From assembly GCF_024298765.1 (NCBI RefSeq), contig NZ_CP101210.1: a stretch of 64,000 nucleotides of DNA, one strand, 5' to 3'. This document shows, piece after piece, positions 29,901 through 35,900 of this stretch; position 1 is the first letter of the stretch, and every line of letters begins with the position of its first letter. The position numbers are program-made. The stretch comes from Escherichia coli. GTDB lineage: Bacteria > Pseudomonadota > Gammaproteobacteria > Enterobacterales > Enterobacteriaceae.

Positions 29901-32900
29901 GGGCGTTTTGAAACTGACATTAACCGACTTTGCCCGCCTGCTGACACAGCTGTAATCCGGGCAGCGTAGCGGAACGTTCATCAGAGAAAAAATGGAATCA
30001 ATAAAGCCCTGCGCAGCGCGCAGGGTCAGCCTGAATACGCGTTTAATGACCAGCACAGTCGTGATGGCAAGGTCAGAATAGCGCTGAGGTCTGCCTCGTG
30101 AAGAAGGTGTTGCTGACTCATACCAGGCCTGAATAGCTTCATCATCCAGCCAGAAAGTTATGGAGCCACGGTTGATGAGGGCTTTATTGTAGGTGGGCCA
30201 GTTGGTGATTTTGAACTTTTGCTTTGCCACGGAACGGTCTGCGTTGTCGGGAAGATGCGTGATCTGATCCTTCAACTCAGCAAAAGTTCGATTTATTCAA
30301 CAAAGCCGGTACAAGCTGGATACACAGGCCAAAGATAAAAAATGGACAGCGTTAGCTGCATTCCCTGGCGGACCAAGAGATCAAGCAACCTCGGCATTTA
30401 TTGATGGCAATCTGTATGTGTTTGGCGGCATTGGCAAAAACAGCGAGGGCTTGACTCAGGTATTTAATGACGTACACAAATACAACCCCAAAACCAATAG
30501 CTGGGTTAAATTGATGTCGCACGCACCGATGGGCATGGCAGGCCATGTGACTTTTGTACACAACGGCAAGGCTTATGTTACTGGCGGTGTTAACCAGAAT
30601 ATCTTCAATGGCTATTTTGAAGATCTCAACGAGGCTGGAAAAGATTCAACCGCTATAGATAAAATCAACGCTCACTATTTTGACAAAAAAGCAGAAGATT
30701 ATTTCTTCAATAAGTTTCTGTTGTCTTTTGATCCCTCAACACAGCAATGGAGTTACGCTGGCGAATCTCCCTGGTACGGAACGGCTGGTGCGGCGGTTGT
30801 GAATAAAGGTGATAAAACCTGGCTTATTAATGGCGAAGCCAAACCAGGATTGCGAACGGATGCCGTATTTGAACTTGACTTCACCGGTGATAATTTAAAA
30901 TGGAATAAGCTTGATCCCGTCTCATCACCAGATGGCGTCGCTGGCGGTTTTGCGGGGATAAGCAATGATTCTCTTATATTTGCCGGAGGGGCCGGATTCA
31001 AAGGTTCACGGGAAAATTACCAAAACGGTAAGAACTATGCGCATGAAGGCCTGAAAAAATCATATAGCGCTGATATTCATCTTTGGCATAACGGGAAATG
31101 GGATAAATCGGGCGAATTATCGCAAGGTCGGGCCTACGGAGTATCATTGCCCTGGAATAATAGTTTATTAATTATTGGCGGTGAAACTGCAGGCGGCAAA
31201 GCGGTGACGGATTCAGTTTTGATCTCTGTGAAGGATAATAAAGTCACAGTACAAAACTAATGCTTCAGGGCCCCAGTAAAGGGGCCCTGCTATCAATTTA
31301 TCATTTCAATTACGCGAAAATTATATGAACGCAATAATATCGCCCGATTATTACTATGTTCTTACCGTTGCTGGTCAGTCTAATGCCATGGCGTATGGCG
31401 AAGGACTGCCATTACCGGACGGGGAAGATGCGCTTCATCCCAGAATTAAACAATTAGCGAGATTTGCGCATACGCATCCCGGAGGCCCGTCATGTCACTT
31501 TAACGACATTATTCCACTGACTCACTGCCCACACGATGTTCAGGATATGCAGGGTTATCACCATCCTCTGGCAACGAATCATCAAACACAGTACGGCACC
31601 GTTGGCCAGGCACTGCATATTGCACGGAAATTACTGCCCTCTATTCCTGATAATGCAGGGGTTCTCATCGTTCCGTGTTGCCGTGGCGGATCGGCTTTTA
31701 CCGCGGGCAGCGAAGGGACATATTCAGAACGGCACGGAGCCAGCCATGATGCTTGTCGTTGGGGATCGGATACTCCGCTATACCAGGATTTAGTCAGCAG
31801 AACGCGAGCCGCACTGGCAAAAAATCCGCAGAACAAATTCCTCGGCGTATGCTGGATGCAAGGCGAATTTGACTTAATGACCAGTGACTACGCGTCACAC
31901 CCTCAACACTTTAATCATATGGTTGAAGCCTTTCGTAGGGATCTAAAACAATACCATTCTCAGCTTAATAATATTACTGACGCACCGTGGTTTTGCGGCG
32001 ATACCACCTGGTACTGGAAAGAAAATTTCCCTCATGCGTATGAAGCGATTTATGGCAATTATCAAAATAATGTTTTAGCCAATATTATTTTCGTCGACTT
32101 CCAGCAACAAGGTGAAAGAGGACTGACGAACGCGCCTGATGAAGATCCGGACGATTTAAGCACGGGATATTACGGTTCAGCGTACCGGTCACCGGAGAAC
32201 TGGACGACGGCACTGCGAAGCAGTCATTTCAGCGCGGCAGCCCGTCGGGGGATTATTTCTGACAGGTTTGTAGAAGCAATTTTGCGGTTTTGGCGCGAAA
32301 GGTGAGCGTTCATTAATTTGATTTATTTGCATCCATCAACGCTTTTAACTCCTCCGGTGAAAACGGTGGTTTGCGTCGGTGCAGCATCGCATGGCAATTA
32401 GGGCACACAGGCAGCAAATCATTAACTGGATCCAGCTGGTAATCCTCTTTAATGGCTGAAAGCGGCACCAGGTGATGCATATGGATAAAGCCTTCAGCGA
32501 TATCACCATAGATCTTCACCAGATCAACGCCGCATACGTTGCACTGGCATCCATGATATTCGACCGCTTTATCTCGGGCCTTTTTATCGCGTTCATAGCG
32601 GTTTACTGTCACCTTTATCGCCGCACCTTCAACGTATGTCTCCTGCGACGGCAACTCATCCGGGAACAGAACGTTGGCTATGGGAGCCGCAGCGGCTTTA
32701 TCCTGATGAATATGAAATCCCTGCTCTATGAGTAGTTTGACGCATTTAGATTTTATTCCGCCGGTGAAATCCGCAGGGGTAAATTGCGTCCCCGTCATCA
32801 ATGTCGCTGCGATGCCAGCAATCGCCTTCGAGGGGTAACGTCGGCCATGATATTCAATCTCATACAACCGCGCAGGCTGGAACTGATGAGTTTCTCCCGC

Positions 32901-35900
32901 ATCCCATAAATGGATAGCTTCGATGATATACCGCCGCGGAAGATGGTCGGGAAGTTTATTCATGGGGAATATCCTTATACGTTCTCAGAACAGGCAGCAA
33001 AAAAACAAATGAGATCAAGGTAATATATCTTCACTTGCAGGCTTGAACAGCAGAAAATTTGCGAGCATGATCGCAATTATTTCACTGCCAGGGATATCAA
33101 TGGCTTCCAGTAAATCGCTACAGCAGGCAATTGCCAATATAAAAATCTGGCACAAGGGTGAACAGCGCGCGCCGCATAAGCCATTGTTATTGCTATACGT
33201 ATTAGCGGGATACCTGAATGGACATCCGCGCCTTTTCGATTATGGATCGGAAATCTACGAACCTCTGCACAGTTTACTGGAACGTTTTGGGCCACAGCGT
33301 TCACAGTACCGACCTGATATGCCGTTCTGGCGATTACAAGGCGACGGATTCTGGCAATTACACAATGCCGAGCTTTGCTCAACAGCAGGGAGCAGCCGAC
33401 AACCGCCAGTGAAAGAACTGAACGAATACCACGTTGCAGGCGGTTTCGATGAACAGCACTACGCCCTGGTAACCGGCAATAAAAAACTCATCAATACTCT
33501 GGCGCAACAGATACTCGAAGCGCACTTCACCGAGAGTATTCAGGAAGAAATTGCTGACGAGCTGGGTTTTGATCTCCAGCAAATCCGTAAACAGCGCGAC
33601 CCGTTATTTCGCAAAAATGTATTACGCGCTTATAACTACCAGTGCGCGATATGTGGCTTTAATATGCGCCACGACGACACCACCGTCGCGCTGGAAGCGG
33701 CGCATATTAAATGGAAACAGCACGGCGGTCCTTGTGAAATTCCTAATGGCCTGGCGCTTTGCGCAATTCACCATAAAGCCTTTGATAAAGGATCGATTGG
33801 CCTGGACGAAAATATGCGGGTACTGGTATCAGATGCGGTAAACGGCGGAGGGATCGTTGAGAGATTATTCTGGGATTTTGACGGGAAAACTATTGCGTTG
33901 CCGCAGGTGCGTAAAAATTACCCTTATGAGGTGTTTGTAGAGTGGCATCGGAAAGAGGTTTTTAGGGGGTGAGGTTGATAACTATCGCAGTATGTTCAAT
34001 ATTGCTGACATAATCAGTGCAGGATCTTGCCGCTAGTTTACAACTCGCCTTCGATAGCGGCGCAAAACGAGTTCTGTTGCCGATATCCTCGGCTATGGAT
34101 ATTCCAACAGTTCCGGCAGAGTTGTTTACCAAGTTTCAGGTAAGTTTTTACTCAGAACCGGTTGATGCGGTTTATAAGGCGCTGGATGTGAATTAACACA
34201 TTCCTCAGCTTATTTACAAAAGGATTATTCCCATTTGATATAATATCAGTGCCAATTTACTTTTTTCAATGGAATATATCTCGACTAAATAACAATAAAA
34301 CTTATCGCTAATGGATTAAATAAACAATTTTCTAATTCATTTCACCACCTTTGATATAGAAATTGATGGTGTTGTCGCTGCCATTGCTTATGGTGATGAT
34401 AAAATCCACGTTTCTGGATCGTTGCGTAGAAAATCATCACTACCTTGATATTTTGATGCGATATAATCATACCGTTCCGTAGTACCAATTTCAATTTCAG
34501 GCTAAACCCCAACATTAAAAAAATTAGAGTTATTCACTGATTATATTATCAATAATATAATCAGTGAATAACATGAACTATATAATAAATTGCTCTAATC
34601 ATTTCCCTTACGAATATATGGGCCAAAAGTCCAAGAATCATAATAAGGGTGATGGACTAATTTTTCATTAAATCGAACACTATAAGTTAATTTTTTTATA
34701 TTTTTACGTACAGCATTAATACTGGGCAAAGAGGAAAGATAATCTATAAACTTATCGATAGTGATTTCCCCTTCGCAACACTCAAACCCATCAATGATAT
34801 TTTTCGCCATTTTTCCATTTTCATTTGTTTGATATATCACTCCAGGTATTCGTTGAAAAAAACTAGATAATGCATATTTGTCCGCTACATATATATCATC
34901 CACATGATATTTCCCACCGAGCATAGTTGTAGTAACAATAAGCTTATACACACCTTTGGGTTGCCATGTTGATGGTAGTTCGAATTCTTTAATGATCACA
35001 TCAAGATGATTAAGATAATGTTCAGAAATTCGATTTATTTGTTGAAAATAAGAACGCATAAATTTATTATTATGATCATGTATTAATGAGCTATCTCCAA
35101 CGATGTTATACACTTGCTGATAGTACTTACCATAATATATTGGTTGACCATTTGATTTTAGTTCTGTAAAAATCAAACAATCATCCAGGAGAATCACGCA
35201 ATCGCACTGATAATTAGCATGAGCATCAATTGGAGAAGCTTTAATCCCCGCATCACGAACTTGTTTTATAAATTGTTGTTCATGAAATCGCCCTTTACTT
35301 GCTTGAGAAATTTTTTTGGAACCAAATAATGACATTAGAGAGCGAGTAACTGAGCTATTTGCTATTAATGCAGGCATTAAGCATAAACCGTCCATACAGG
35401 GAATAAATGGGCAATCATTAAGATCATGTGATTTTGAATTGAAGGTAAAATAATCTATCAGTTTTTTTGCTGCATCTGCTGCAATCCCCTTACGTTGAAA
35501 GAATGATAACCAACTCTCACGGCTTTTTATGATCAGCCAGCGATCCAACTGTAGGGGTATAGGTTTTGTCGATGAAAATCTTTTGCTCATTTCTTCTTTA
35601 GATAACTCGACTAAACATTGATAAGCGTGCACCCAATTAAATAATGATATATTCCCATATTCTTCATGAAGGTCATCAGGAGACATATTTTCCAACTCGC
35701 TTAGATGAAATGAGCTAAAAACGCCATCAGAATTTAAGTAAGATGGCATATGATCCTTTACCCAACTATTTAGATGAAAATGTTTGTTACTAAATTCATG
35801 AACTTCGCTATATAGATGTGACGCTCTCATCATTAGTCTATTTCTTGCAATCTCATAATCTCGGTATAAACAAAAACTATCAACCTCAAGAGAGTAAATG

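What the first reader, a model, noticed from the sequence alone, without database searches (positions are those of the whole stretch)
32313..33972. Divergent pair of HNH nucleases with unrelated N-terminal domains between nanS and the island
Two back-to-back genes 79 bp apart each encode a C-terminal HNH motif (CxxC...HH...CxxCH-like) fused to different N-terminal domains of roughly 150-180 aa. HNH nucleases fused to DNA-modification readers are the architecture of McrA-type modification-dependent restriction enzymes. Two such genes side by side could target different modifications or form a two-component system. The first gene starts 8 bp after nanS, so this is an insertion hotspot.
Basis: partly seen in the sequence, partly recalled or inferred. 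Interest (0 to 1): 0.6.

Follow-up and report, generated by a model that had tools for sequence, protein, structure and literature searches.

The report
Two neighbouring restriction nucleases, one already characterised
Two real nuclease genes sit head-to-head beside nanS in E. coli's busiest defence hotspot: one is essentially the known enzyme EcoWI, which cuts sulfur-modified (phosphorothioated) foreign DNA, and the other belongs to a large untested family whose targeting domain has no known function.

Summary
Gene A (32313-32963, minus strand, 216 aa) and gene B (33100-33972, plus strand, 290 aa) are intact, divergent and both carry HNH nuclease domains.

Gene B is a sulfur-binding-domain (SBD)-HNH enzyme. 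It scores 438 bits against NCBIfam NF045808 (cut-off 180) and is 288/290 identical to the E. coli W orthologue. It is almost certainly EcoWI-type, the published phosphorothioate-dependent enzyme that cuts at GpsAAC N7/N6.

A two-component system is not supported:
- Among 5,426 complete E. coli genomes, A is present in 1,238, B in 1,706 and both in 325. Independence predicts about 389.
- The conserved promoter-like palindrome belongs to B alone.
- EcoWI works alone in published experiments.

The divergent pair does recur in Citrobacter and Klebsiella at other loci, so it moves as a cassette. It sits at the nanS edge of the leuX hotspot ("hotspot 37"), next to the scar of a deleted BREX system.

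Verdict: mostly known biology, with one modestly interesting untested enzyme.

The parts
32313..32963 (-). Gene A: 216-aa ScoMcrA-head-HNH endonuclease. Identical DNA is annotated WP_001037972.1 'HNH endonuclease' in RefSeq.
   Evidence: ORF; RefSeq annotation of 100%-identical DNA; more than 2,600 homologues of the same length and architecture, PF26345+PF01844.
32700..32963 (-). Gene A head domain (aa 1-88; helix-strand-strand-helix-helix-strand), ScoMcrA_N / PF26345.
32601..32699 (-). Gene A linker (about aa 89-121), predicted disordered.
   Evidence: pLDDT below 50 for aa 90-121 in the full-length model; length-variable in the family alignment.
32313..32600 (-). Gene A HNH nuclease domain (aa 122-216), McrA-like, with a Cys4 zinc site.
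   Evidence: PF01844, E 4e-4. EcoKMcrA 6GHC aa 199-270, E 1.1e-3. Catalytic and zinc residues invariant in 67 sequences.
33043..33080 (+). Promoter-like TTGAAC-17 nt-CATGAT overlapped by the palindrome TTGCGAGCATGATCGCAA. This is the conserved upstream element of gene B.
   Evidence: Palindrome found. TTGA and TGCGAGCAT.ATCGCA are invariant or nearly so upstream of B orthologues in 10 contexts from 9 genera, with or without gene A, while the A-proximal half is not conserved. Promoter and operator function is inferred, not shown.
33100..33972 (+). Gene B: 290-aa SBD-HNH phosphorothioate-dependent restriction endonuclease (EcoWI type). Identical DNA is annotated WP_000168564.1.
   Evidence: NF045808, 438.3 bits versus cut-off 180. 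288/290 identical to the E. coli W orthologue. RefSeq annotation.
33100..33579 (+). Gene B sulfur-binding domain (about aa 1-160).
   Evidence: phmmer to the ScoMcrA SBD 5ZMO, E 5e-8. H26-K27 align to the sulfur-contacting H116-R117, and M-P in DMPFW aligns to Y164-P165 (residue roles from PMC6224610). PF26340 is precomputed on 99%-identical proteins.
33580..33972 (+). Gene B linker and HNH_2 nuclease domain.
   Evidence: PF13391, E 1.3e-9, at aa 201-255 of the 309-aa ORF. PADLOC HNH PDLC04132, E 5e-25.
34017..34196 (+). Scar: the last 59 codons of brxL. This is what remains of a BREX-1 system that follows gene B in other strains.
   Evidence: TIGR02653 positions 617-675 of 675, E 3.8e-24. PADLOC BrxL. 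Intact membrane-protein gene plus brxA-brxL after gene B in ECOR29 and TW10590.

Best explanation
These are two separate, self-sufficient modification-dependent (Type IV / IIM-like) restriction endonucleases. They sit head-to-head as a small cassette at the nanS-proximal edge of the leuX defence hotspot.

Gene B is an EcoWI-type enzyme. Its N-terminal sulfur-binding domain docks on Rp-phosphorothioate links in foreign DNA. For EcoWI the site is GpsAAC/GpsTTC, the mark written by the Dnd systems of E. coli B7A and Salmonella. Its C-terminal HNH domain, working as a dimer, cuts a few bases away (N7/N6). This blocks entry of DNA from Dnd-positive donors.

Gene A uses the small ScoMcrA-type head domain, through a flexible linker, to bring an McrA-like zinc-finger HNH nuclease to DNA. 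The target is most likely DNA carrying some non-self modification other than Dam or Dcm methylation, which would be self-toxic in E. coli.

Shown here: gene structure, domain identities, distribution, and independence of retention.

Taken from the literature: EcoWI biochemistry.

Inferred: that the window's protein behaves like EcoWI, and everything about A's substrate.
For: Gene B:
- NF045808, 438 bits versus a cut-off of 180.
- SBD aligned to 5ZMO with the sulfur-contact residues conserved.
- HNH_2 domain.
- 99% identical to the E. coli W orthologue, which sits at the same locus with gene A deleted.
- EcoWI alone cleaves GpsAAC N7/N6, is a dimer, and abolishes transformation by dnd+ plasmids (PMC7461809).

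Gene A:
- HNH domain is closest to EcoKMcrA.
- Catalytic and zinc residues are invariant.
- The family has more than 2,600 clusters at 90% identity.
- The head profile finds 3,876 clusters at 50% identity. In 84 of the longer top-scoring members, the head is combined with HNH, EVE, SRA, DUF3427, McrB-type AAA_5, MrcB_N, AspBHI_N and NOV_C. This is the domain vocabulary of Type IV restriction.
- No methyltransferase is adjacent to A.

Independence of the two genes:
- In E. coli, A is at least 80% present in 1,238 genomes, B in 1,706 and both in 325 of 5,426. The expectation if independent is about 389.
- Annotated examples exist of an intact B with a 35-codon stump of A (ECOR29, TW10590, W) and of an intact A with a 50-codon stump of B (EC61).
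- B orthologues in Salmonella, Enterobacter, Lelliottia, Buttiauxella, Kluyvera and Pseudocitrobacter lack A.
- Lone A genes occur in Raoultella, Klebsiella, Atlantibacter, Pseudescherichia and others.
- The conserved upstream element belongs to B whether or not A is present.
Against: The same divergent A|B arrangement, with gaps of about 130-180 bp, recurs in Citrobacter in two different chromosomal contexts and in Klebsiella. The two genes are therefore linked more than random defence-island neighbours would be.

Head and SBD are fused in one polypeptide in ScoMcrA, which could hint at a functional link.

No experiment exists for gene A or for any head-HNH protein in the searchable literature. 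Modification dependence of A is pure inference.

The papers do not state which sequence EcoWI is. Identity with the window's protein rests on the enzyme name, the predicted size (33.4 kDa published versus 33.2 kDa here) and family membership.

The E. coli co-occurrence count is not corrected for phylogeny.
Confidence: 0.75

Rival explanations
1. A and B form a functional pair: a split ScoMcrA-like system. The head-HNH and SBD-HNH proteins would cooperate, either as a heteromer or by one nicking each strand, or would be co-regulated from the shared intergenic region.
For: The divergent pair is conserved with similar spacing in E. coli, Citrobacter (two loci) and Klebsiella. ScoMcrA carries head and SBD in one chain (PMC6224610). 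In four other Enterobacteriaceae, B is followed by a different HNH enzyme, Mrr_N-HNH. B therefore often has a second HNH neighbour.
Against: Co-retention in E. coli is no higher than chance: 325 observed versus about 389 expected. Each gene is found intact beside a stump of the other. Six of ten sampled B clusters lack A. EcoWI alone is a dimer, makes double-strand cuts and restricts in vivo (PMC7461809). Only the B-proximal half of the intergenic region is conserved, and it is conserved without A. None of the 150 best head-containing proteins carries an SBD.
Confidence: 0.12
2. Gene A is not a modification-dependent restriction enzyme. It could be a non-specific or structure-specific nuclease (a toxin-like abortive-infection effector, or a repair or nicking enzyme). 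The head domain would then be a plain DNA- or protein-binding or regulatory module.
Against: In the 216-aa family the head is the only domain besides the nuclease, so it must supply whatever targeting exists. The HNH is of the McrA type. The genomic contexts are defence islands without an antitoxin-like partner. An unregulated non-specific nuclease kept intact in about 23% of E. coli genomes would be toxic.
Confidence: 0.13

Closest known systems
EcoWI (SBD-HNH phosphorothioate-dependent endonuclease; Lutz et al. 2020, PMC7461809)
   Same: Gene B has the same architecture (SBD + linker + HNH, no SRA) and the same size. It carries the conserved KPzzLL...PF.L.W motifs. It belongs to the NCBIfam 'PT-DNA_restrict' family and is 99% identical to the E. 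coli W orthologue at the same locus.
   Different: Two substitutions relative to the W protein (G156R and H208Q in W). The identity of the published EcoWI sequence could not be read from the papers. Activity of this allele has not been tested.
ScoMcrA (head-SBD-SRA-HNH, Streptomyces coelicolor; PDB 5ZMM)
   Different: Here the head and the SBD are on two separate proteins, each with its own and different HNH subtype. Neither has an SRA domain.
EcoKMcrA (E. coli K-12 McrA; PDB 6GHC)
   Same: Gene A's HNH domain is closest to the McrA HNH (E 1e-3). Both are small reader-linker-HNH enzymes with no methyltransferase.
   Different: McrA's N-terminal 5mC-reading domain (NEco) is absent. The head domain shows no sequence or fold match to it.
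BREX plus Type IV restriction defence islands (for example the pEFER island, cited in PMC9009780), and E. coli hotspot 37 at leuX (PMC12707154)
   Same: In ECOR29 and TW10590, gene B is followed by a membrane-protein gene and a complete BREX-1 operon within the lptG-uxuR hotspot. The window keeps only the last 59 codons of brxL.
   Different: In the window the BREX system has been deleted, so A and B stand alone between nanS and the leuX att repeat.

Membership tests
PT-dependent SBD-HNH restriction endonucleases (NCBIfam NF045808; EcoWI/SprMcrA type) | Whole-protein score above the curated cut-off. | tested here: met
   Gene B scores 438.3 bits against a cut-off of 180, covering profile positions 2-284 of 284.
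PT-dependent SBD-HNH restriction endonucleases (NCBIfam NF045808; EcoWI/SprMcrA type) | Sulfur-binding domain with the cavity residues (H116, R/K117, P165 of ScoMcrA). | tested here: met
   Alignment to 5ZMO/5ZMM has H-K aligned to H-R and M-P aligned to Y-P. According to PMC6224610, K replaces R in most homologues and Y164 is not conserved. PF26340 is present on 99%-identical proteins.
PT-dependent SBD-HNH restriction endonucleases (NCBIfam NF045808; EcoWI/SprMcrA type) | C-terminal HNH nuclease with CxxC/CxxH zinc ligands, and no SRA domain. | tested here: met
   PF13391, E 1.3e-9, is the only Pfam hit. CAIC...CAIHH is visible in the sequence.
PT-dependent SBD-HNH restriction endonucleases (NCBIfam NF045808; EcoWI/SprMcrA type) | Cleavage dependent on Rp-phosphorothioate (GpsAAC/GpsTTC, N7/N6) and restriction of dnd+ DNA. 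| not testable with these tools
   Shown for EcoWI in PMC7461809 and PMC9521924. Inferred here from 99% identity to the E. coli W orthologue.
PT-dependent SBD-HNH restriction endonucleases (NCBIfam NF045808; EcoWI/SprMcrA type) | No dnd modification cluster of matching specificity next to the gene. | tested here: met
   No dnd or ssp genes appear in the annotated equivalents of the window's flanks. The rest of the genome was not seen.
ScoMcrA_N-HNH proteins (PF26345 + PF01844, about 210-220 aa) | N-terminal ScoMcrA-type head domain. | tested here: met
ScoMcrA_N-HNH proteins (PF26345 + PF01844, about 210-220 aa) | C-terminal HNH with intact catalytic His/Asn and a Cys4 zinc site. | tested here: met
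   PF01844. C141, C144, H163, H164, C187, N189, C190, H191 and H195 are invariant.
EcoKMcrA (McrA) family | N-terminal NEco 5-methylcytosine-reading domain. | tested here: not met
Full ScoMcrA architecture (head-SBD-SRA-HNH) | All four domains in one polypeptide. | tested here: not met
   A has head + HNH only. B has SBD + HNH only. No SRA hit in either.
Type IV (modification-dependent) restriction, for gene A | Stand-alone nuclease with a sensor domain and no cognate methyltransferase. | tested here: met
   No methyltransferase is adjacent in the window or in 8 lone-A loci. The head domain co-occurs with Type IV modules.
Type IV (modification-dependent) restriction, for gene A | Cleavage requires a modified substrate. 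| not testable with these tools
   No experimental report found for any head-HNH protein.
Obligate two-gene system (A+B) | The genes co-occur and are lost together. | tested here: not met
   Counts are 1,238 (A), 1,706 (B) and 325 (both) of 5,426 genomes. Reciprocal stumps are seen. B occurs without A in six genera.

The most novel reading that the evidence does not exclude
The ScoMcrA-type head domain (PF26345), so far 'function unknown', is itself a sensor of a DNA modification or DNA feature. That would make gene A the prototype of a very large, uncharacterised family of Type IV restriction enzymes: 3,876 clusters at 50% identity across many phyla. The conserved A|B cassette of E. coli, Citrobacter and Klebsiella would then be a co-inherited dual-specificity unit, with phosphorothioate as one target and a second modification as the other.
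Probability: 0.3. Interest if true: 0.55.

Novelty: new member of a known kind. Interest (0 to 1): 0.3.

Why it matters
Gene B adds nothing new mechanistically. It does show that the EcoWI gene is an ancestral resident of the E. coli leuX hotspot. It is intact in about 31% of complete genomes and decayed in most others, including K-12.

Gene A is the useful lead. It is the minimal natural context of the ScoMcrA head domain, because the head is the only non-catalytic module present. That makes it a clean experimental handle for assigning a function to a domain found in thousands of defence proteins. If it reads a specific modification, it could become another reagent enzyme, as EcoWI did.

Tried and rejected
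- Looked for an accession, sequence or source strain for EcoWI in PMC7461809 (main text and held supplement), PMC9521924 and PMC10602919. None is given. Identity therefore rests on the E. coli W orthologue and family membership.
- Tested whether head and SBD are commonly fused. phmmer with the EcoWI and ScoMcrA SBDs against the 150 best head-containing proteins found none.
- Considered shared regulation through the palindrome. Rejected because it is conserved upstream of B in genomes without A.
- The weak NF045808 hit of A (E 0.004) is only the helix leading into the HNH domain.
- Literature searches for the RefSeq protein accessions returned nothing.
- The 682-aa neighbour gave no hit in Pfam, NCBIfam, PHROGs or PDB sequence searches, and only one weak PADLOC hit (PDC-M29B, E 1e-3).
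Full report
**What is there.** The window is E. coli chromosome covering uxuR, the fim operon, nanC-nanM-nanS, and then the finding. Gene A occupies 32313-32963 on the minus strand and encodes 216 aa. Gene B's longest ORF starts at TTG 33043. However, RefSeq annotation of 100%-identical DNA, the NF045808 profile alignment (which starts at residue 25 of that ORF) and an AGGGA Shine-Dalgarno sequence all place the start at ATG 33100. B is therefore 290 aa and the intergenic gap is 136 bp, not 79 bp. A is convergent with nanS: its stop codon lies 7 nt after the nanS stop. 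The G+C content of both genes (46-50%) is like the core genome, whereas the next gene is 30-36%.

**Gene B.**
- It scores 438.3 bits on NCBIfam NF045808, 'phosphorothioated DNA-binding restriction endonuclease' (cut-off 180).
- Its first ~160 residues align to the ScoMcrA sulfur-binding domain (5ZMO, E 5e-8). The sulfur-contacting H-R pair is matched by H-K, and Y-P is matched by M-P. Liu et al. report that K is usual at the R117 position and that Y164 varies (PMC6224610).
- The C-terminus is an HNH_2 domain.
- Lutz et al. (PMC7461809) characterised EcoWI, an E. coli SBD-HNH protein of 33.4 kDa. It cuts GpsAAC/GpsTTC at N7/N6 in Mg2+, is a dimer, and abolishes transformation by dnd+ plasmids when expressed alone.
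- The papers do not give its sequence or source strain. By REBASE naming (my own knowledge) it should come from E. coli W.
- E. coli W carries the gene at this very locus. Its product is 288/290 identical to the window's protein (calculated mass here 33.2 kDa).
- I therefore treat B as an EcoWI allele. Its activity is inferred, not shown.

**Gene A.**
- Residues 141-197 match Pfam HNH, and the nearest solved HNH is EcoKMcrA.
- Residues 24-87 match the 'head' domain of ScoMcrA (5ZMM aa 29-93, E 5.6e-5). They also match the same stretch of PADLOC's ScoMcrA-like Type IV model.
- More than 2,600 clusters at 90% identity share the 210-220-aa architecture PF26345 (ScoMcrA_N) + PF01844. They come from Enterobacteria, Shewanella, Sulfurimonas, Planctomycetes and others.
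- All zinc and catalytic residues are invariant.
- AlphaFold2 gives a confident 88-aa head (helix-strand-strand-helix-helix-strand), a disordered linker (aa 90-121) and the HNH domain.
- Liu et al. state that the head is small, flexibly attached and of unknown function. No other paper in the library discusses it.
- A head-domain profile finds 3,876 clusters at 50% identity. Among 84 of the longer top-scoring members, the head is combined with HNH (35), HNH_2 (19), EVE (12), McrB-type AAA_5 (7), NOV_C (7), nSTAND3 (6), DUF3427 (4), SRA (2), MrcB_N (2) and AspBHI_N (1). This is the repertoire of modification-dependent restriction enzymes.
- No methyltransferase is adjacent to A here or at eight lone-A loci.
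- A is therefore best read as a Type IV-like enzyme whose sensor is the head domain. That is inference. It fails the EcoKMcrA membership test because McrA's N-terminal reader is absent.

**Are they one system?**
- In 5,426 complete E. coli genomes, A is at least 80% present in 1,238 and B in 1,706. The 1,660-nt pair is present in 325. Independence predicts about 389, so there is no excess co-retention. This is not corrected for phylogeny.
- Decay states are reciprocal:
  - ECOR29, TW10590 and E. coli W keep an intact B beside a 35-codon stump of A, left by a ~583-bp deletion.
  - EC61 keeps an intact A beside a 50-codon stump of B.
  - EC02 has stumps of both.
  - O157:H7 has B abutting nanM.
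  - K-12 retains only a 206-bp frameshifted piece of B.
- Outside E. coli, the same divergent pair occurs in Citrobacter in two chromosomal contexts (near tnaA/symE, and between prpR and an IclR-family regulator gene) and in Klebsiella next to a GH43 gene. It therefore moves as a cassette.
- However, B orthologues in Salmonella, Enterobacter hormaechei, Lelliottia, Buttiauxella, Kluyvera and Pseudocitrobacter lack A.
- In E. cancerogenus, Enterobacter sp. MGH 24, C. portucalensis and R. planticola, B is instead followed by an Mrr_N-HNH gene.
- A occurs alone in Raoultella, K. pneumoniae ATCC 13883, Atlantibacter, Pseudescherichia and others.
- The only conserved intergenic element is TTGA-N-TTTGCGAGCAT(C/G)ATCGCAATTATTT, which lies 20-57 nt upstream of B's ATG. 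It is conserved in all ten contexts examined whether or not A is present. The A-proximal half is not conserved.
- Together with EcoWI's activity when expressed alone, this argues for two autonomous enzymes that are often, but not necessarily, inherited together.

**Locus history.**
- The region between lptG and uxuR is Raleigh's and Hochhauser's 'hotspot 37', anchored on leuX. It is the most occupied defence island of E. coli, holding BREX in 9% and Dnd in 2% of loci (PMC12707154).
- In ECOR29 and TW10590 the order is nanS | A stump | B | membrane protein | brxA-B-C-pglX-pglZ-brxL ... leuX.
- In the window, B is followed by only the last 59 codons of brxL. BREX has therefore been deleted.
- In strain 13P477T the whole interval nanS-leuX consists of A, B, the brxL scar and one 678-aa orphan.
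- The window's similarity to that strain ends at 37343, inside the 3' end of tRNA-Leu. From there a CP4-like integrative island begins.
- The pair is thus an old edge resident of the hotspot, not a recent insertion.

**Verdict.**
It is reasonable but unproven for A. It is not supported as a two-component system.
- The remaining interest is that A offers the simplest setting in which to discover what the widespread ScoMcrA head domain does.

Noticed in passing
window 29251-30307: nanM is split by a 1,057-bp insertion with a 9-bp target duplication. The insertion carries an IS5-family transposase ORF (29307-30275, minus strand). The size and duplication length fit an IS903-like element. nanS (31325-32305) is a full 326-aa ORF.
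   Followed up: partly
window 34017-34196: The last 59 codons of the BREX gene brxL, with no upstream part. Other E. coli strains (ECOR29, TW10590) have a complete BREX-1 operon here, directly after gene B and a membrane-protein gene. Strain 1919D3 has a partly decayed version.
   Followed up: yes
window 34595-36643 (minus strand): A 682-aa ORF with only 30-36% G+C. It has no hit in Pfam, NCBIfam, PHROGs or PDB sequence searches, and one weak PADLOC hit (PDC-M29B, E 1e-3). It is annotated 'hypothetical' in RefSeq and frameshifted in some strains. A 20-bp-stem palindrome follows it at 34529-34572. It may be an uncharacterised defence gene of hotspot 37.
   Followed up: partly
window 33043-33080: A promoter-like TTGAAC-17 nt-CATGAT overlapped by the perfect inverted repeat TTGCGA-N6-TCGCAA. 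It is nearly invariant upstream of EcoWI orthologues in nine genera. It may be an operator or a 5'-UTR hairpin. The binding factor is unknown.
   Followed up: partly
window 37320-37343: Similarity to an island-free strain ends inside the 3' end of tRNA-Leu (leuX). ARAGORN finds no complete tRNA in the window. This looks like the att repeat at the distal end of an integrated CP4-like island (37344 onward). That island carries cbtA/cbeA, an antirestriction gene, a 292-aa 'restriction endonuclease' at 48558-49436, astA and a chaperone-usher fimbrial operon.
   Followed up: partly
L085 5011-5216 (E. coli K-12 MG1655 derivative): K-12 retains a 206-bp frameshifted remnant of the phosphorothioate-dependent endonuclease gene between nanS and yjhR. 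Some match to gene B is present in 4,869 of 5,426 E. coli genomes.
   Followed up: yes
L024 5536-6378; L106 3887-4591; L017; L025: In C. portucalensis, E. cancerogenus, Enterobacter sp. MGH 24 and R. planticola, the EcoWI orthologue is followed on the same strand by an Mrr_N-HNH gene. Its HNH domain is 54-57% identical to gene A's. R. planticola also keeps a 20-codon remnant of the head domain upstream (L025 4561-4620).
   Followed up: partly
L088 (E. coli W, NC_017635.1 4760000-4809999): In E. coli W the EcoWI gene is followed by McrBC-family genes, a Type I R-M system, a large uncharacterised cluster (a 4,287-bp ORF, a HerA-like helicase and a Ser/Thr kinase) and a second Type I system. This shows how densely hotspot 37 is packed.
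   Followed up: no
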